Positions 1 to 51,019 of a stretch of DNA of 51,019 bases are shown here, in pieces. The notes beneath the pieces are model-generated. The model did not search any database. It was given only the letters and a program-made list of their open reading frames with translations, and was not told the origin of the DNA. Where the stretch lies: the IMG/VR virus record IMGVR_UViG_3300037264_001118, positions 1-51,019 of that record. One strand, written 5' to 3'. The stretch comes from a virus. Lineage: Duplodnaviria > Caudoviricetes. Both the position numbers and the translations under genes were made by a program. Within the stretch, counting starts at the first letter, position 1. Each line of letters opens with the position of its first letter.

Positions 1-245
1 TTCACGGCGGTTGACACGACCGCCGCGCACGTTACCGCAACGTGGAAAGAGAACCGCGCGGGCAACGCCCGGGGCGCAACCCTGAAGTTGCTTTCTTCCA
101 CCCAAGTTCGGATGGAGTGGGACGGCGCGCTTGTCGCCGCCGAAACCCTTACGGGGGAATTCGAAGTCGTGGAACACAAGCCCCGACGCGGGGCCTTCAT
201 GCGGCTACTGAACGCGACGACCGTTCGCTTGGAATGGGACGGCGC
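1..245. repeat. Terminal direct repeat, left copy (matches 50775-51019); circular assembly overlap
   Basis: 245 bp identical to the window end except at positions 128, 129 and 134. It lies inside a CDS, which suggests a circular or permuted genome. Confidence 0.95.
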
Positions 246-10417: not shown

Positions 10418-10445
10418 TTGACTGTATCCCCTGTCGGGGTATAGT
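10418..10445 (+). promoter_or_regulatory. Promoter TTGACT-N16-TATAGT
   Basis: Same -35 and 16-bp spacer as the promoters at 22999, 23755, 24359 and 26040. Heads the replication operon. Confidence 0.7.
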
Positions 10446-10573
10446 TGGAACTTCAAGGCGAAGGGCCGGGGTCCGGGCGACCCGTCCGAAAGGGCGGAAA
10501 CGACGGACCCCGGCCCCAAGCCGACCGCGACCGGACGGGATTCCGGCGACTTGTAAATATAGGGATTGCGACC

Positions 10574-10855
10574 ATGCCGAAGCCCAACAACGTTCGGGCG
10601 GCGTTCGACGCCGGGTACTGTTCCGGTAAGTATTGCCGGGACTTGGTAGGGTCCGGCGAAGGAATCCAAGACTACACGGACCCCGAACACCCCAAGCGGT
10701 TTTGCTGGTTTTGTTACCGGAAGTTGGAAGCCGCCAAGGACGCCAGCCCCAAGGCCCCGCCCGCGCCCGCGACGGCCCCGCCGCCGGACGCTACGCCCCC
10801 GACCCTGCCCCCGACCCTGCCCCGCCGCGTCGTCGTCGTGCGGAGGAATACCTAG
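10574..10855 (+). CDS. Small Cys4 zinc-finger-like protein
   Basis: CSGKYC...CWFC, a Pro-rich linker and C-terminal RRVVVVRR. Confidence 0.6.
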   Translation: MPKPNNVRAAFDAGYCSGKYCRDLVGSGEGIQDYTDPEHPKRFCWFCYRKLEAAKDASPKAPPAPATAPPPDATPPTLPPTLPRRVVVVRRNT

Positions 10856-22636: not shown

Positions 22637-22915
22637 ATGGCGCGTAAGTTCCCCGTATTCGAAGTGTTCTTCGGAAACCGTTCGGGCGAATTCCGTTGGC
22701 GGCTCCGATCCAAGAACGGTTTGATTATCGCGTCTTCCGGCGAAGGCTACAAACAGCGCGCCGGAATCGTGAACGCCATTCGAGCGGTCAAGCTGGCCGC
22801 TTCCCGGGGCGTGGTGGAAGCCGTCAAGGTCGTTCCCGCCCGGCTGTTGAAGAAGGCCAAGCCCAAGGCGAAGCCCAAGCCCAAGGCGAAAGCCCCGGCC
22901 AAGGTTCCCGCGTAA
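22637..22915 (+). CDS. YegP/DUF1508-family protein with Lys/Pro/Ala tail
   Basis: FEVF..GEFRWRLRSKNGLIIASSGEGYK..NAIRAVK signature. GGAGG RBS. Confidence 0.85.
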   Translation: MARKFPVFEVFFGNRSGEFRWRLRSKNGLIIASSGEGYKQRAGIVNAIRAVKLAASRGVVEAVKVVPARLLKKAKPKAKPKPKAKAPAKVPA

Positions 22916-22936
22916 CTGCCTTTTCCTCCCTCTCTC

Positions 22937-22987
22937 GAAAGCCCCCCGGGTCGGTCGCAAAGACTCCCCGGGGGGCTTTTCTTTTTT
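22937..22987 (+). terminator. Intrinsic terminator
   Basis: aaagccccccggg...cccggggggcttt stem followed by a long T-run. Confidence 0.85.
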
Positions 22988-22998
22988 ACGAACGCCTA

Positions 22999-23026
22999 TT
23001 GACTTTATGCCATAAAGTGCGATACT
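22999..23026 (+). promoter_or_regulatory. Promoter TTGACT-N16-GATACT overlapping palindromic operator CTTTATGCCATAAAG
   Basis: Copy 1 of the repeated cassette. Confidence 0.8.
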
Positions 23027-23032
23027 TGAAGC

Positions 23033-23347
23033 ATGGAAACCAACGGCGCGGACACTTTGGACGCGCGGGGTATTTCCAGTCGAAAGGGGCAAGCCATGAA
23101 AAAGCGCAACGCGAACACGATCATTCGGGCCGAAATGCTCGCCAACGAACGGGTTTTCTTTTCCATGGTCCGCGAAGCCAACAAAGACGGCAAGCGTTAT
23201 CAGCCTTCGGTATGGCTTAACAAGTCTTCCCACAACGCGCTTACGCGGCTGGAACGCAAGGGCCGAATCGTGTTCATTGCCGGGACCGTGCTTGGCCGTA
23301 AGGGGTGGGCTCCGTCCGGTTATGTCGTCGTGAACAAGGCCAAGTAA
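23033..23347 (+). CDS. Small basic protein, possible winged helix (second start at 23096)
   Basis: SHNALTRLERKGRIVF...GYVV resembles a wHTH helix plus wing. Two in-frame ATGs. Confidence 0.6.
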   Translation: METNGADTLDARGISSRKGQAMKKRNANTIIRAEMLANERVFFSMVREANKDGKRYQPSVWLNKSSHNALTRLERKGRIVFIAGTVLGRKGWAPSGYVVVNKAK

Positions 23348-23374
23348 CCCCAACCCCCATTGAAAGGAACAGCC

Positions 23375-23671
23375 GTGAAGAACACTTGTGAACAGCGCGT
23401 CGGGTCGATAATGACGGGACGCCACGTTTGCGGGAAGCCCGCGACCATGACCCACGAAGACCGGGCCTATTGCGGCATCCATGACCCCGTGAAGCGGAAG
23501 GACAAGGCCGACGCCCGCTATGCGGAAGCCCGCGCCCTTGACCAGCACCGTTTCGAAGTTCAGGAAGCCAAGGGCGACCTTGTGCGGGCCGCGTTGGACG
23601 CCGCCCCGGAGTCCCTGCCCCCCGCCCTTCGGGAAGCGGTCGCGGCCTATCGGTCCATGATCGGCAAATAA
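23375..23671 (+). CDS. Hypothetical protein with C..C..CxxH zinc motif
   Basis: gaaagga RBS with GTG start; YCGIHDP. Confidence 0.6.
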   Translation: MKNTCEQRVGSIMTGRHVCGKPATMTHEDRAYCGIHDPVKRKDKADARYAEARALDQHRFEVQEAKGDLVRAALDAAPESLPPALREAVAAYRSMIGK

Positions 23672-23692
23672 CCCCCCCCCCCCCCGGTCAAG

Positions 23693-23733
23693 GAAAGGCT
23701 CCCCACCCCCCAAAAGGGGGGCCTTTTTCTTTT
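23693..23733 (+). terminator. Intrinsic terminator
   Basis: GC-rich hairpin (aaaggctcccc...ggggggccttt) followed by a T-run, just before the next promoter. Confidence 0.7.
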
Positions 23734-23754
23734 CCCCCCATGTCGCTTTGGGCG

Positions 23755-23782
23755 TTGACTTTATGCCATAAAGGGGTATGAT
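23755..23782 (+). promoter_or_regulatory. Promoter TTGACT-N16-TATGAT with operator
   Basis: Copy 2 of the cassette. Confidence 0.85.
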
Positions 23783-23788
23783 TTGGGT

Positions 23789-24286
23789 ATGAAGAACAAC
23801 GACGCGGCGACCACTACGGGAGCCGGGGTTTCTTCGAACGGAAAGGGGCTTACCATGGCGGGCAAAATGAAAAAGGGAACCCCGGTTGTGCAAATCAACT
23901 TTTGGAACGGGGGGCTTACTGGCGACACGTTCACGATTAGTACCCGGAAAATGGTTCTCAAGAGCATGGGGGCCAAACAGGGAACGGCAACGGTTGTGTC
24001 TAGCGGGGAAATGGCCCTGCATAGGTTTTACGCGGAACAGATTGGAAAAACGATTTTCGCGGAAAGCGAACTGTCCGAAGCCCGGATTATGGAAATCGCC
24101 AAGGCCATGCAGGACGCCACAATCAAGGCCGAAACGGATACCCTTAATTGGCGCGTGGAGAACTGGGGCGAAGCCGAAGGCCGTTACTACGAAAAGTTCG
24201 TCAACAACGCTAAGAAGCCGCTTCGGGTCGCTTCATACGAAACCCTTTGCGCGGAAGTAAAAACCGAAGTCCAAGGCATGAAGTAG
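23789..24286 (+). CDS. Hypothetical early protein (second start at 23855)
   Basis: Single-gene cassette between a promoter and a terminator. Confidence 0.7.
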   Translation: MKNNDAATTTGAGVSSNGKGLTMAGKMKKGTPVVQINFWNGGLTGDTFTISTRKMVLKSMGAKQGTATVVSSGEMALHRFYAEQIGKTIFAESELSEARIMEIAKAMQDATIKAETDTLNWRVENWGEAEGRYYEKFVNNAKKPLRVASYETLCAEVKTEVQGMK

Positions 24287-24304
24287 CCCCCGACCCCGGC
24301 CAGT

Positions 24305-24336
24305 AGAAAGGCCCCCGAAAGGGGGCTTTTTTATTT
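24305..24336 (+). terminator. Intrinsic terminator
   Basis: gccccc-gaaa-gggggc followed by tttttt. Confidence 0.9.
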
Positions 24337-24358
24337 GCTTCGAATCGTATTTGGACCG

Positions 24359-24386
24359 TTGACTTTATGCCATAAAAGGATACGAT
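24359..24386 (+). promoter_or_regulatory. Promoter TTGACT-N16-TACGAT with operator
   Basis: Copy 3 of the cassette. Confidence 0.85.
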
Positions 24387-24392
24387 TTAGGT

Positions 24393-24785
24393 ATGAAGAA
24401 CCACGCGGCGGGCCTTTCGCGCGCCGGGGTTTCTTCGATGAAGGGTTCCACCATGATGCACGGAAACGAACTTCCCATCCGGCGGACGATCTACGTTAAG
24501 CCCTGCCCCGACTTCGTGGCGGCGGTTGTGAACATGGAAGCCCGCATCAAGCAAGGCGCGAAGACCCCCCGGACTTGCGCCGAAGTCCGCAAGTTCGTGG
24601 GCGAGTTCGGCGGCATCAAGGAATGGACCTTGCGCCGACACCCCACGGGTTACTTTTACGTGACGGGGTACGAAGCGGACGGCAAGCCCTTTTCCACGTC
24701 CAGCATTTGCATTCATGCGCTACGTCAAACCACGTTGGCGGACTGGCGCGAAATCGTGGAACGGAACATCGTGGAAGCCCTTTAG
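24393..24785 (+). CDS. Hypothetical early protein (second start at 24453)
   Basis: First gene after promoter copy 3. Confidence 0.65.
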   Translation: MKNHAAGLSRAGVSSMKGSTMMHGNELPIRRTIYVKPCPDFVAAVVNMEARIKQGAKTPRTCAEVRKFVGEFGGIKEWTLRRHPTGYFYVTGYEADGKPFSTSSICIHALRQTTLADWREIVERNIVEAL

Positions 24786-24791
24786 GGAGGA

Positions 24792-25196
24792 ATGGACATG
24801 GACAAGATGGAAAAGGGCGGCTTGGTCCGGGTCAAGGCTGGTCGGCTGGCTGGCCGGGAAGCCACGGTCTATTGGGTGTCCGGCGACGGCTCCCGCATCG
24901 GCGCGAAGTTCGGACACGCGACGGCGGCGGACGGCCCCAAGTTCCTTGACACTATGTTTTGGTTCAGCATGGCGGACGTGGAAGCCGTGTCTTGGGGCTA
25001 CGAACGCGACGGCATGGAGGAAGTCCACCGTTGCGCGCGTTGCGCCGGAACGGGCGCGTTCATTACGTGCGTGGTCAACGGCCAGCCGTCCGGCCCCGGC
25101 GGGTCGTGCTTCCGTTGCGGCGGCAAGGGCCGCGTGAACGGGGAAGACCGGGAACGGAATTGGGGCTTTGATATGTTCGGTCGGAGGGTCCGCTAG
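24792..25196 (+). CDS. Hypothetical protein with a DnaJ-type CxxCxGxG zinc finger
   Basis: CARCAGTG...CFRCGGKG; GGAGG RBS. Confidence 0.7.
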   Translation: MDMDKMEKGGLVRVKAGRLAGREATVYWVSGDGSRIGAKFGHATAADGPKFLDTMFWFSMADVEAVSWGYERDGMEEVHRCARCAGTGAFITCVVNGQPSGPGGSCFRCGGKGRVNGEDRERNWGFDMFGRRVR

Positions 25197-25231
25197 ACTT
25201 TATGCCATAACGTCCCTTTATGCCGTAAAGT
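25197..25231. promoter_or_regulatory. Tandem degenerate operator copies
   Basis: ctttatgccataacg and ctttatgccgtaaag, 18 bp apart. Confidence 0.7.
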
Positions 25232-25356
25232 GTAAACGCTTTACGTAAATTGTCACAACCGAACCCCGATTCCCAATCGGAATTGGCTTGGCATGGCGTT
25301 TGCGTGTAGTACCGTGGTTGTTGGTTCTTTGAAATTCTGTTTGGAGGAAAGGCGCA

Positions 25357-25875: not shown

Positions 25876-25941
25876 GGCCTTAGAGGGGGTGGGGAAAGGG
25901 CTAGGGGGTTCGACTCCCCTTAGCCCCGGTAATATTCGCAA

Positions 25942-26012
25942 GGGCCTAGTTTGGTAGCATCGTCGGGACGTGGAACCCGGCGATTGGGGTTCAATCCCCC
26001 ATAGGTCCACCA
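25942..26012 (+). tRNA. Atypical tRNA-like RNA (reduced D arm, non-canonical 8-nt anticodon loop)
   Basis: Acceptor gggccta/taggtcc plus ACCA, T arm tgggg-ttcaatc-cccca, and stem tcggg/cccgg around acgtggaa. Confidence 0.55.
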
Positions 26013-26039: not shown

Positions 26040-26067
26040 TTGACTTTATGGCATGGTGGGATAGAAT
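26040..26067 (+). promoter_or_regulatory. Promoter TTGACT-N16-TAGAAT with partial operator
   Basis: Copy 4. ctttatggcat is the first 11 nt of the operator in the opposite orientation. Confidence 0.75.
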
Positions 26068-26116
26068 CCTAGTGGTGATTGACGAAGGACGGACCCTTTT
26101 TTATGGAGGAAAGCGC

Positions 26117-27049
26117 ATGGAAACCCGGAACGATGTTCACGCGCCAAGCCGGATCAACCCCGCCGATTATGAATACGTCGCGCAAGAGCATGTCAAATCC
26201 GAAGGCTTCGGGGGCTGTTTCTTCATGCTTCAGGAACGTAAGGTCTTCGAAATGCACAAGGCCAAGACGGGCGGCAACTGGTCCCACCACGCCCACGGCG
26301 GCAACTGCATGATTTGCGGATCGGTCAACGCTCTTTACACGGTGATTTATTACCACGCCCCGACCAATTCCTACATTCGCACGGGGCAAGATTGCGCGTC
26401 GAAGTTCGACACGGAACACGCGGACGCTTTCCGCATCTTCCGCGAAGCGTCCTTGGCCGCGACCCACGCGAAGGCGGGCAAGGCCAAGGCCCAAGGGCTG
26501 TTGAACGAACGCGGCTTGGGGGCCGCGTGGACGATTTATACCCTTATGGAAGAACTGAACCCCGAAGGCCCGCGCGTCCCGTGGGAAGAAACCACGATTA
26601 CCAACATTGTTGGGAAGCTGGTCAAGTACGGGTCGGCGTCCGACAAGCAATTTGATTTCGTCGGGGTGCTGTTGGGTAAGATCAACAACCGCGCGGCGTT
26701 GGCGGCGAAGAAGGCGGCGGACACGGCCCATATCAAGGATTGCCCCGAAGGTCGGATCGTCATTCGGGGCCGGGTTCTCACGGTCAAGCATCAAGAATCC
26801 GCTTTCAACGTGGACGGCATTTATAAAATGCTGGTCCAGCACGGGGACGGCTGGAAGGTTTGGGGCTCCGTGCCTAGCGCGCTGAACGTGGGCCGGGGCG
26901 ACGTGGTGGAGTTCAAGGGGACCGTGGAGCGGAGCAAGGACGACCCCAAGTTTGGCTTCTTCAAGCGTCCGGCTTGCGCGTCCGTGGTGGAAGCGGCCCC
27001 GGCTCCGGTTGCGGCGGCGGTTGTGGAAGGGGTGTCCAGCAATGGCTAA
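26117..27049 (+). CDS. Hypothetical protein with zinc motif and C-terminal OB-fold-like domain
   Basis: GGAGG RBS; CMICG...GQDC; GRVLTVK...GDVVEFKGTV..KRP. Confidence 0.7.
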   Translation: METRNDVHAPSRINPADYEYVAQEHVKSEGFGGCFFMLQERKVFEMHKAKTGGNWSHHAHGGNCMICGSVNALYTVIYYHAPTNSYIRTGQDCASKFDTEHADAFRIFREASLAATHAKAGKAKAQGLLNERGLGAAWTIYTLMEELNPEGPRVPWEETTITNIVGKLVKYGSASDKQFDFVGVLLGKINNRAALAAKKAADTAHIKDCPEGRIVIRGRVLTVKHQESAFNVDGIYKMLVQHGDGWKVWGSVPSALNVGRGDVVEFKGTVERSKDDPKFGFFKRPACASVVEAAPAPVAAAVVEGVSSNG

Positions 27050-50564: not shown

Positions 50565-51019
50565 ATGTCGGATTATTCGCTTGTGCAACGTGGCCTAATC
50601 AGCGCGACCAGCGCGGACGGGGCCGGGCCGAAGGACGCAACGCTTGCGTCGGCTGTCAAGCCCGCGTCAACGTTCGTCGTGGGGTTCGTGCGCGACCGTC
50701 GCCGGAACACGTTCGTTCAGCGCGGGCAAATCGCGGCGGCGAACCCCGACGTTTCCCCCAAGGATTCCGCCGCGTTCACGGCGGTTGACACGACCGCCGC
50801 GCACGTTACCGCAACGTGGAAAGAGAACCGCGCGGGCAACGCCCGGGGCGCAACCCTGAAGTTGCTTTCTTCCACCCAAGTTCGGATGGAGTGGGACGGC
50901 GTTCTTGCCGCCGCCGAAACCCTTACGGGGGAATTCGAAGTCGTGGAACACAAGCCCCGACGCGGGGCCTTCATGCGGCTACTGAACGCGACGACCGTTC
51001 GCTTGGAATGGGACGGCGC
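50565..51019 (+). CDS. 5' part of a putative tail protein spanning the junction (50565..50774 joined to 1..600, ~269 aa)
   Basis: RBS gaaagga then ATG at 50565 (MSDYSLVQRG...), open to the end and in frame with position 1. Directly follows the tape measure gene. Confidence 0.8.
   Translation, partial: MSDYSLVQRGLISATSADGAGPKDATLASAVKPASTFVVGFVRDRRRNTFVQRGQIAAANPDVSPKDSAAFTAVDTTAAHVTATWKENRAGNARGATLKLLSSTQVRMEWDGVLAAAETLTGEFEVVEHKPRRGAFMRLLNATTVRLEWDG
50775..51019. repeat. Terminal direct repeat, right copy
   Basis: Starts ttcacggcggttgacacg at 50775 and ends ggacggcgc, as does 1-245. Confidence 0.95.

What the first reader, a model, noticed from the sequence alone, without database searches (positions are those of the whole stretch)
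22999..24455. Repeated early cassette: AUG at the predicted TSS opens a hairpin leader that stays in frame with a second, RBS-led AUG
Seen: three cassettes share TTGACT-N16-[-10 box]-N6-ATG, with the ATG at 23033, 23789 and 24393, i.e. at the expected +1. Each leader folds into a similar stem-loop: gaagaa/ttcttc in two copies and the compensatory tggaaa/tttcca in the other, with inner stems cggc/gccg, cggcg/cgccg and gcgcg/cgcgc. An RBS and a second ATG follow at 23096, 23855 and 24453. Leader lengths are 63, 66 and 60 nt, all multiples of 3 with no stop. They encode similar peptides in front of unrelated proteins: METNGADTLDARGISSRKGQA, MKNNDAATTTGAGVSSNGKGLT and MKNHAAGLSRAGVSSMKGST. A fourth promoter (26040) has GTG near +1, also in frame with its gene (42 nt). 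Inference: a portable dual-initiation module (leaderless plus SD-led) that could make tagged isoforms, keep translation going during host shut-off, or act as a ribosome-unfolded switch.
Basis: partly seen in the sequence, partly recalled or inferred. Interest (0 to 1): 0.8.

Follow-up and report, generated by a model that had tools for sequence, protein, structure and literature searches.

The report
Portable phage promoter with hairpin leader
Three small phage genes of unknown function each sit behind a copy of one control unit (terminator, promoter with a repressor-type site, an RNA hairpin at the start of the message, ribosome site), which is a known way for phages to shuffle genes, here with a possible second, upstream start codon.

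Summary
Three cassettes share TTGACT-N16-(-10)-N6-ATG, a 42-45 nt stem-loop starting at +2/+3 of the predicted transcript, an SD, and a second ATG 63, 66 and 60 nt downstream in frame.

The hairpin is kept at the RNA level: 5 of 15 pairs changed on both sides, and 4 of 500 shuffles did as well. The "peptide" shows no coding-type constraint.

Each cassette follows an intrinsic terminator, carries a palindromic operator in the promoter spacer, and drives ORFan genes. The whole 2.26-kb block replaces a single promoter plus one small gene in the closest relative. This matches PeSL/moron-type modular shuffling (PMC2839356).

My best reading is a portable early-expression cassette whose 5'-terminal stem-loop protects or regulates the mRNA, with the SD-led ATG as the main start.

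Dual initiation is neither shown nor excluded. Against it, the AUG's G is paired (P at least 0.95) and the frame statistics are weak. For it, two natural homologues of the second cassette's protein begin MKNN..., fused directly to the protein body.

No homologous leader was found elsewhere, so the proposed frame test could not be run.

The parts
22944..22990 (+). Intrinsic terminator-like hairpin (C/G tracts) plus T-run, ending the upstream DUF1508 gene unit
   Evidence: Sequence. RNA-library contigs of X2, X4 and X5 end at 22967, 22973 and 22982 (a weak hint only).
22999..23026 (+). Promoter 1: TTGACT-16-GATACT with TG at -15/-14. The palindromic operator CTTTATG-C-CATAAAG (23003-23017) lies in the spacer.
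23033..23095 (+). Leader 1 (63 nt): ATG at the predicted +1, stem-loop 23034-23078, SD GAAAGGGG 23082-23089
23096..23671 (+). Two ORFan genes of unit 1 (23096-23347, 83 aa; 23375-23671, 98 aa, GTG start)
   Evidence: no Pfam or PHROG family; no homologue besides the window's own protein
23706..23735 (+). Intrinsic terminator (CCCCCC-AAAA-GGGGGG plus T-run)
23755..23782 (+). Promoter 2: TTGACT-16-TATGAT, operator 23759-23773
23789..23854 (+). Leader 2 (66 nt): ATG at the predicted +1, stem-loop 23791-23835, SD GGAAAGGGG 23840-23848
23855..24286 (+). Gene of unit 2 (143 aa from the SD-led ATG). Homologues in metagenomes carry three kinds of N-terminus.
24311..24337 (+). Intrinsic terminator (GCCCCC-GAAA-GGGGGC plus T-run)
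24359..24386 (+). Promoter 3: TTGACT-16-TACGAT, operator 24363-24377
24393..24452 (+). Leader 3 (60 nt): ATG at the predicted +1, stem-loop 24395-24436, SD GAAGGG 24440-24445
24453..25196 (+). Two genes of unit 3 (24453-24785, 110 aa ORFan; 24792-25196, 134 aa with Cys-rich motifs)
25194..25269 (+). Cluster of operator-like copies that closes the variable block. It is the best-conserved stretch versus the relative L008 (86%).
26040..26067 (+). Fourth promoter of the same family (TTGACT-16-TAGAAT, half operator). Its leader is short and unstructured, with no ATG at +1.

Best explanation
The three elements are copies of one portable early-expression cassette in a hypervariable part of a 51-kb phage genome.

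Each unit reads, in order:
- an intrinsic terminator;
- a sigma-70-type promoter whose spacer holds a 15-bp palindromic operator;
- a transcript that starts (predicted) 1-2 nt before a 42-45 nt stem-loop;
- an unpaired Shine-Dalgarno sequence and an ATG;
- one or two ORFan genes.

The cassette acts as a self-contained transcription unit of the moron / PeSL type. It probably also offers homology for recombination that swaps ORFans in and out.

The stem-loop is an RNA element anchored to the 5' end. Its most likely role is to leave too few unpaired 5' nucleotides for 5'-end-dependent decay (RppH/RNase E-type or RNase J-type) and so stabilise short early mRNAs. A second possible role is as a handle for a regulator.

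The SD-led ATG is the principal start. The +1 AUG is an in-frame, largely sequestered codon that may give a minor extended isoform, or may be a relic of a leaderless start.

Shown: the anatomy, the covariation, and the module boundaries against a relative. Inferred: the TSS, mRNA stabilisation, recombination, and which start is used.
For: Repeat and promoter statistics: (families D5, D7, D9).

Hairpin:
- 15 pairs, 95.6% of cells paired against 82.9% in shuffles.
- 5 pairs changed on both sides against 1.6 in shuffles; 4 of 500 shuffles reached this.
- Slid controls gave 0-1 such pairs.
- The stem starts at +2 (copy 1) or +3 (copies 2 and 3) in all three copies.
- A1 is free, U2 has P(unpaired) 0.2-0.9, and G3 at most 0.05.
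- A base-paired 5' end slows RNase E (PMC3997798, passage).

SD: mostly unpaired.

Loop sequences: they differ between copies, which fits a structural role rather than a loop-specific one.

Module boundary: leader homology stops at the second ATG, and the downstream proteins are unrelated ORFans.

Synteny: window 22938-25197 (3 cassettes, 5 genes) stands where the 83%-primase relative L008 has 312 bp with one same-operator promoter and a 77-aa gene. The flanks are conserved.

Precedent: PeSLs are described as sigma-70 promoter plus terminator stem-loop plus SD/start, about 100 bp, flanking ORFans, with one phage carrying a cassette where its relative has a single PeSL (PMC2839356, passages; PMC4122927, abstract).

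A fifth promoter (10418) is also followed by a 5'-proximal hairpin (-51.4 kcal/mol, z -4.7). The structure is kept in L008 with a different inner sequence.
Against: - The TSS is only predicted.
- RNA-library contigs span promoters 1 and 3 (22948-23164, 24338-24592). So read-through RNA (or DNA in the libraries) exists, and in such RNA the hairpin would be internal.
- Single-sequence fold z-scores are modest (-1.6 to -2.0).
- The evidence comes from three paralogues in one genome, and no orthologous leader was found.
- The closest relative's same-operator promoters do without a hairpin, so the element is dispensable.
- The reading does not by itself explain ATG at +1 in 3 of 3 copies, or net leader lengths of 63, 66 and 60 nt.
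- Homologues P0005 and P0008 start with the first residues of the 'leader peptide'. That argues ATG1 is more than a bystander.
Confidence: 0.55

Rival explanations
1. Dual-initiation module. The mRNA starts with AUG and is translated both as a leaderless message from +1 and from the SD-led AUG. This gives two isoforms, one carrying a 20-22 residue N-terminal tag. The frame is kept so that ribosomes from +1 make a product rather than run through the main start out of frame.
For: - ATG sits exactly 7 nt after the -10 with Y(-1)R(+1) in 3 of 3 copies.
- Net lengths are 63, 66 and 60 nt with frame 0 open.
- Copies 2 and 3 differ by two 3-nt gaps.
- Homologues of the cassette-2 protein come in three forms. 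MAGKM-KKG occurs in the window's own P0002, P0003 and P0004; MSQM-KKG in P0006; and MKNNDAAPAIL-KKG (P0008, contigs up to 50,424 nt) and MKNNETRPAL-KKG (P0005).
- In the last two, ATG1 and the 5'-arm codons are fused to the body without the 3' arm, SD or second ATG.
- The bodies of P0004, P0005 and P0008 are 90-95% identical to each other.
- Precedents: 5'-terminal AUGs on SD-led E. coli mRNAs bind 70S ribosomes and are translated (PMC4965119, abstract and passages). Leaderless 'isoform ORFs' occur in M. tuberculosis, and a 5' AUG/GUG is sufficient in mycobacteria (PMC9094748, passages).
Against: - G3 is paired with P at least 0.95 in a -20 to -25 kcal/mol hairpin, leaving only 1-2 free nt.
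- There is no third-position excess of substitutions (6/4/4 and 8/10/7).
- Frames 0 and 2 are both open in all three leaders, so openness is uninformative.
- Copy 1 versus copies 2 and 3 needs offsetting 1-3 nt gaps, so part of the 'conserved' G[IV]SS is read in a shifted register.
- The chance of three in-frame lengths is about 1/27 if independent, and about 1/9 allowing shared descent of copies 2 and 3.
- The fourth promoter and both same-operator promoters of L008 have no +1 start codon.
- The DNA upstream of P0005 and P0008 could not be seen, so their MKNN start may be SD-led or a gene-caller extension.
- The host is unknown, so its proficiency in leaderless translation is unknown.
Confidence: 0.25
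2. The hairpin is a recognition site for a trans-acting factor and not a passive cap. Candidates are a put/nut-type antitermination signal that lets RNA polymerase read through the terminators between the units, an RNase III-type processing site in read-through transcripts, or the operator of a translational repressor.
For: - Each unit ends in a terminator directly before the next promoter.
- RNA-library contigs bridge the terminator-promoter junctions.
- Internal-loop nucleotides (ACG on the 5' side, GGGG(U) on the 3' side) are invariant in the three copies.
Against: - No Rfam family matches the leader at E up to 1.
- Apical loops are not conserved.
- The stem has only 15 interrupted pairs, which by my recollection is short for RNase III.
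- Each unit has its own promoter, so antitermination is not needed for expression.
- Invariant positions among recent paralogues may simply be unmutated.
Confidence: 0.1
3. ATG1 is the only true start. Under this reading the cassette is a leaderless promoter plus a 20-residue coding 'tag', and the SD-like word and second ATG are incidental.
For: - Gene callers chose ATG1 for all three window genes (P0002, P0007, P0009).
- P0005 and P0008 have only the MKNN start.
- A distant homologue, P0012, also begins MKN...AAAIKKG.
Against: - AAGGG lies 7-9 nt before ATG2 and is invariant in 3 of 3 copies, and homology ends at ATG2.
- P0004 and P0006, and 6 of 8 distant homologues, start 3-8 residues before the conserved (K/Q)KG.
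- The peptide is unconstrained.
- The AUG is sequestered.
Confidence: 0.05

Closest known systems
PeSLs (promoter-early stem-loop cassettes) of T4-type phages (Arbiol et al. 2010, PMC2839356; Comeau et al. 2014, PMC4122927)
   Same: - A repeated composite motif of about 100 bp: terminator stem-loop with C/G tracts, strong sigma-70-type promoter, then SD and start codon at the 3' edge.
- It clusters in a hyperplastic region and flanks ORFans.
- One phage carries cassette-plus-ORFan units where its close relative has a single promoter element.
   Different: - This is a 51-kb phage, not a T4-type myovirus.
- The cassette has two extra parts: a palindromic operator in the spacer and a second stem-loop inside the transcript, starting at +2/+3.
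- ATG sits at +1.
- Mini-circles and recombination were not tested.
Morons of lambdoid phages (gene with its own promoter and terminator inserted between conserved genes; recalled, and mentioned in PMC2839356)
   Same: Each unit is promoter, gene(s), then factor-independent terminator, lying between genes that are adjacent in a relative.
   Different: Classical morons do not share conserved flanking cassettes. Here all three share promoter, operator and leader.
5'-terminal stem-loop mRNA stabilisers (ompA, papA, B. subtilis aprE leaders). I saw the titles in the reference list of PMC3997798. The T7 phi10 leader hairpin is recalled only.
   Same: A hairpin within 1-2 nt of the predicted 5' end, followed by an open SD.
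   Different: Function was not measured. The element is repeated as part of a mobile cassette, and it begins with AUG.
5'-uAUGs on SD-led mRNAs (Beck, Fleming & Janssen 2016, PMC4965119) and leaderless isoform ORFs in M. tuberculosis (Smith et al. 2022, PMC9094748)
   Same: An AUG at the transcript's 5' end on an mRNA that also has an SD-led start. In the M. tuberculosis case the two starts share a frame and a stop.
   Different: - The tabulated E. coli uORFs I saw end before, or overlap out of frame with, the downstream gene.
- Here the AUG is in frame, buried in a hairpin, and repeated before unrelated genes.
- Translation has not been shown.

Membership tests
PeSL-type promoter/terminator cassette | Strong sigma-70-consensus promoter repeated in intergenic regions | tested here: met
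   TTGACT-16-(GATACT/TATGAT/TACGAT). 3 exact 18-mers were found against 0.03 expected.
PeSL-type promoter/terminator cassette | Adjacent stem-loop that terminates upstream transcription | tested here: inconclusive
   GC hairpins plus T-runs lie 8-22 nt upstream of each -35. Terminator activity was not measured, and RNA-library contigs cross two of them.
PeSL-type promoter/terminator cassette | SD and start codon of the downstream gene at the 3' edge; cassettes flank ORFans in a hyperplastic region that differs between close relatives | tested here: met
PeSL-type promoter/terminator cassette | Occurs in T4-type myoviruses; mediates recombination and mini-circles | not testable with these tools
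   The phage is 51 kb and not T4-like in size. I did not type its taxonomy, and there is no recombination assay. It is therefore filed as 'works like', not as a member.
5'-terminal stem-loop mRNA stabiliser | Stem begins within about 2 nt of the 5' end | tested here: inconclusive
   Met for the predicted TSS (1-2 free nt), but the TSS is not mapped.
5'-terminal stem-loop mRNA stabiliser | Lengthens mRNA half-life | not testable with these tools
   Needs rifampicin chase or reporter assays.
Leaderless / 5'-uAUG initiation | AUG at the very 5' end of the transcript | tested here: inconclusive
   ATG lies 7 nt after the -10 in 3 of 3 copies. No raw-read 5' ends were available.
Leaderless / 5'-uAUG initiation | Accessible 5' terminus that a 70S ribosome can load | tested here: not met
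   G3 has P(unpaired) at most 0.05, and the hairpins are -20 to -25 kcal/mol. This is prediction only.
Leaderless / 5'-uAUG initiation | Ribosome binding and translation from the 5' AUG | not testable with these tools
   The only indirect hint is homologues P0005 and P0008, which start MKNN....
Curated RNA families (Rfam 15) | Match to any covariance model | tested here: not met
   No hit overlaps the leaders at E up to 1.

The most novel reading that the evidence does not exclude
A mobile 'start module' that gives any ORF recombined behind it two starts on one mRNA: a leaderless AUG at +1 and an SD-led AUG, kept in frame. Early proteins are then made in two forms, with and without a common 20-residue N-terminal tag, and a 5' hairpin sets the ratio. 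The natural short forms (MKNN... fused to the protein body) would be the same module collapsed to its leaderless half.
Probability: 0.25. Interest if true: 0.7.

Novelty: new variant of a known kind. Interest (0 to 1): 0.45.

Why it matters
Three points would follow if the main reading holds.
- PeSL-style cassette shuffling of ORFans would not be confined to T4-type phages. An uncultured 51-kb sediment phage would use the same approach.
- That cassette would have been extended by an operator and a 5' RNA structure. This would make it a compact natural expression part: terminator, repressible promoter, stabilising leader and RBS.

The dual-start reading would matter more. It would be a portable device for making N-terminal proteoforms in a phage, and a natural test bed for how 5' structure balances leaderless against SD-led initiation.

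The finding also flags an annotation hazard. Gene callers took the +1 ATG for all three window genes.

Tried and rejected
1. Homologous leaders were sought and not found.
- Covariance model R1 hit only the 3 window copies (E about 1e-21) among 39 sources (737,102 bases). The next best hit had E 0.23.
- It found 0 matches in 5 whole relative records.
- It found nothing relevant in 100 of the 120 metagenome promoter-pattern loci. The best E there was 0.042, on four AT-rich look-alike loci.
- It found nothing in the other 20 loci plus 18 further loci (best E 0.051).
- A gapped leader pattern gave 0 hits in viral contigs.

2. The promoter/operator 18-mer in viral contigs gave 3 and 2 hits. All were AT-rich chance matches except the relative L008.

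None has ATG at +1 (0 of 120).

4. blastn of 22900-25300 and tblastn of P0008 against GenBank phages gave no match.

5. The cassette-2 protein has no relative in viral contigs, either as a single sequence or as an alignment.

6. Host: the primase profile in genome contigs gave 72% on a 3.6-kb contig binned as Nitrospirota and 35% on a contig binned as Planctomycetota. Neither is trusted as a host call.

7. A wHTH regulator encoded next to the bacterial operator copies has no homologue in the phage (tblastn best E 0.74).

8. Metatranscriptome runs X2-X5 are all one study and are held as contigs only.
- They hold the region but cannot show starts, strand or level.
- Contig ends near 22967-22982, the twofold higher contig depth after promoter 1 in X4, and the uncovered parts are not used as evidence.

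9. The 'switch' idea (hairpin masks the SD) is rejected, because the SD is mostly unpaired.

10. Supplementary tables of the papers were closed. S1/S2 of PMC4965119 may list in-frame 5'-uAUG cases that I could not see.
Full report
WHAT IS THERE. The window is a complete virus record of 51,019 bases. Its GC content is 58%. The ends repeat over 245 nt, and all long ORFs lie on the + strand. TTGACT lies at 22999, 23755 and 24359, followed by a 16-nt spacer and the -10 boxes GATACT, TATGAT and TACGAT. Six nt later comes ATG at 23033, 23789 and 24393. The 18-mer TTGACTTTATGCCATAAA is exact in all three copies. A fourth match with two mismatches lies at 25194. Only 0.03 matches are expected by chance, and 0 of 100 shuffles gave 4 or more. 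The second ATGs (23096, 23855, 24453) follow GAAAGGGG, GGAAAGGGG and GAAGGG. The leaders are 63, 66 and 60 nt long, and the quoted peptides are correct.

THE HAIRPIN. Each leader folds into one stem-loop that starts at +2 (copy 1) or +3 (copies 2 and 3) of the predicted transcript. The energies are -22.2, -19.8 and -25.3 kcal/mol, with z-scores of -1.98, -1.62 and -1.88. Of 200 shuffles, 7, 15 and 12 fold at least as well, so taken singly the folds are only modestly better than chance. The comparison between copies is stronger. RNAalifold gives 17 pairs, 5 of them with changes on both sides. On the 15-pair hairpin, 95.6% of cells pair against 82.9% in shuffles. Five pairs are changed on both sides against 1.6 in shuffles, and 4 of 500 shuffles reach that. 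Sliding the 3' partners by 1-3 columns leaves 0-1 such pairs. This rests on three sequences, so it is suggestive rather than proof. Apical loops differ between copies. The SD is mostly unpaired. No Rfam family matches the leaders.

First, each cassette sits 8-22 nt after a GC hairpin plus T-run at 22944-22990, 23706-23735 and 24311-24337. Repeat family D7 covers terminator, promoter and leader over 100 nt at 75% identity. Second, the promoter spacer holds a dyad, CTTTATG-C-CATAAAG, which overlaps the -35 box. Further copies cluster at 25194-25269, and a half copy lies at 26040. Another note of this scan on the same genome flagged this operator. Third, the genes behind the cassettes have no Pfam or PHROG family. 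Fourth, I compared the window with the closest relative, L008, whose primase is 83% identical. Window 22938-25197, holding three cassettes and five genes, stands in place of 312 bp of L008. Those 312 bp hold one same-operator promoter with a 23-nt unstructured leader and a 77-aa gene. The flanks are conserved: the DUF1508 gene on the left and the operator cluster on the right at 86%.

This anatomy is that of PeSLs in T4-type phages. Those are described as a sigma-70 promoter plus a terminator stem-loop with G/C tracts plus SD and start codon. They span about 100 bp and flank ORFans in hyperplastic regions, and one phage carries a cassette-plus-ORFan where its relative has a single PeSL (PMC2839356, passages read; PMC4122927, abstract). 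Each unit also fits the definition of a moron.

IS THE LEADER TRANSLATED?

Evidence against:
- In predicted ensembles A1 is free and U2 is partly free (P 0.2-0.9). G3 is paired with P at least 0.95.
- Frames 0 and 2 are open in all three leaders, so 'no stop' says little.
- Substitutions fall 6/4/4 (copy 2 versus 3) and 8/10/7 (copy 1 versus 3) over codon positions, with no third-position excess.
- Peptide similarity is confined to MK(N) and G(V/I)SS, which the two stem arms encode, and to KG, which the SD encodes.
- Copy 1 aligns to copies 2 and 3 only with several 1-3 nt gaps that cancel out. So the indels are not each multiples of three; only the net lengths are.
- The chance of three in-frame leaders is 1/27 if they are independent, and about 1/9 if copies 2 and 3 share their frame by descent. 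The pattern was also noticed after the fact.
- The fourth promoter has GTGs at -2 and +2, not at +1, and no hairpin.
- L008's two same-operator promoters have no +1 start codon.

Evidence for:
- ATG sits at the canonical distance, with a pyrimidine at -1, in 3 of 3 copies.
- Copies 2 and 3 differ by two 3-nt gaps.
- The cassette-2 protein has homologues in the large protein set, and they carry three kinds of N-terminus. MAGKM-KKGTPVV occurs in P0004 and, behind the same leader peptide, in the window's own P0002 and in the variant strain P0003. MSQM-KKG occurs in P0006. MKNNDAAPAIL-KKG occurs in P0008, on contigs up to 50,424 nt, and MKNNETRPAL-KKG in P0005.
- P0005 and P0008 keep the first 4-7 codons of the 'leader' but have 30-33 nt instead of 81 before KKG. 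They therefore lack the 3' arm, the SD and the second ATG.
- The bodies of P0004, P0005 and P0008 are 90-95% identical to each other, so both forms exist among close relatives.
- If the promoter abuts MKNN in those contigs, these are leaderless genes and ATG1 is a working start codon in this phage group.

I could not see that DNA. Distant homologues (9 proteins with E at most 1e-3) mostly begin 3-8 residues before the conserved (K/Q)KG, and one begins MKNLKEYTAAAIKKG.

Precedents for the concept exist. 5'-terminal AUGs on SD-led E. coli mRNAs bind 70S ribosomes and are translated (PMC4965119, abstract and passages). Leaderless in-frame 'isoform ORFs' occur in M. tuberculosis (PMC9094748, passages).

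MECHANISM I COMMIT TO (0.55). The element is a portable early-expression cassette. The terminator insulates the unit, and the operator-bearing promoter fires it. The transcript begins 1-2 nt before a stem-loop. That leaves fewer free 5' nucleotides than RppH and RNase E prefer: 'at least two ... prefer three or more' (PMC8833179, passage). A base-paired 5' end is also cut more slowly by RNase E (PMC3997798, passage). The open SD then drives translation from the second ATG. A fifth promoter at 10418 is likewise followed by a 5'-proximal hairpin (-51.4 kcal/mol, z -4.7). That structure is kept in L008 with a different inner sequence, so structured 5' leaders look like a habit of this phage lineage. 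The anatomy, the covariation and the module boundaries are shown. The TSS, the stabilisation, recombination at the cassettes and the choice of start are inferred.

Rivals: dual initiation (0.25); a factor-binding, antitermination or processing site (0.10); ATG1 as the sole start (0.05). The remainder is for no function beyond recent duplication.

RNA DATA. One DNA run and four metatranscriptome runs of one study hold the stretch, but only as contigs. These show that a variant strain exists. Its cassette 2 is identical over 23676-23890. Its gene then differs at 44 positions in 23891-24118, and an 82-nt piece is replaced by 73 other letters. After 24201 only 6 differences follow. This is a mosaic edge close behind the cassette. 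Contigs cross promoters 1 and 3, so read-through RNA or contaminating DNA is present. Nothing can be said about the TSS.

HOST. The host is unknown. The best genome-contig matches to the primase are short or phage-like contigs binned as Nitrospirota (72%) and Planctomycetota (35%). The exact promoter/operator 18-mer also occurs in 61 high-GC metagenome loci out of 120 hits. In 60 of those it is in tandem, upstream of a membrane protein and a winged-helix regulator. The phage has no homologue of that regulator.

VERDICT. The element is a new variant of a known kind: a PeSL/moron-type cassette with an added operator and a 5' stem-loop. The open and testable question is whether its +1 AUG is used.

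Noticed in passing
window 23003-23017, 23759-23773, 24363-24377, 25194-25269, 26044-26056; loci L046-L165: The spacer palindrome CTTTATG-C-CATAAAG looks like a repressor operator. The same 18-mer (-35 box plus operator) occurs in 61 high-GC (at least 0.60) metagenome loci out of 120 hits. In 60 of those 61 there is a second operator-like copy within 40 nt, upstream of a membrane protein followed by a small winged-helix regulator. The phage encodes no homologue of that regulator.
   Followed up: partly
window 25942-26012 and 25897-25925: A tRNA-like gene with a 7-bp acceptor stem, T arm and ACCA but an 8-nt anticodon loop. ARAGORN missed it, and the only Rfam hit is a weak one to the tRNA-like mascRNA model (E 0.045). 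Just upstream lies an acceptor/T-arm-like minihelix. Another note of this scan also flagged the tRNA-like gene.
   Followed up: no
window 10418-10575; L008 1205-1310: A fifth TTGACT-16-TATAGT promoter is followed by a very stable 5'-proximal hairpin (-51.4 kcal/mol, z -4.7) in a leader of about 125 nt. The relative keeps the structure with a different inner sequence (-51.4 kcal/mol, z -5.2).
   Followed up: partly
window 23891-24201: A variant strain in a metatranscriptome contig is identical over cassette 2. It then differs at 44 positions in 23891-24118 and replaces 82 nt by 73 other letters. After 24201 it is near-identical again. This is a mosaic patch inside the cassette-2 gene.
   Followed up: partly
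window 23671-23686: A long run of C directly after the stop of gene 23375-23671 and before the terminator. RNA-library contigs break there (23662 / 23676).
   Followed up: no
window 24372: One contig of run X4 carries adapter-like letters followed by GGGAG, joined at 24372, which is 21 nt upstream of the predicted +1 of cassette 3. This could be a fragment end or an RNA 5' end, and a contig cannot tell which.
   Followed up: no
window 1-245 and 50775-51019: A 245-nt direct repeat at the two ends (99% identical). The record is classed linear, while the close relative's record has direct terminal repeats.
   Followed up: no
window 26056-27041 vs L008 17028-17067: The gene behind the fourth promoter (26117-27049, 310 aa, PHROG families of unknown function) has no blastn match in the relative at this position. 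So this promoter also marks an edge of variable content.
   Followed up: no
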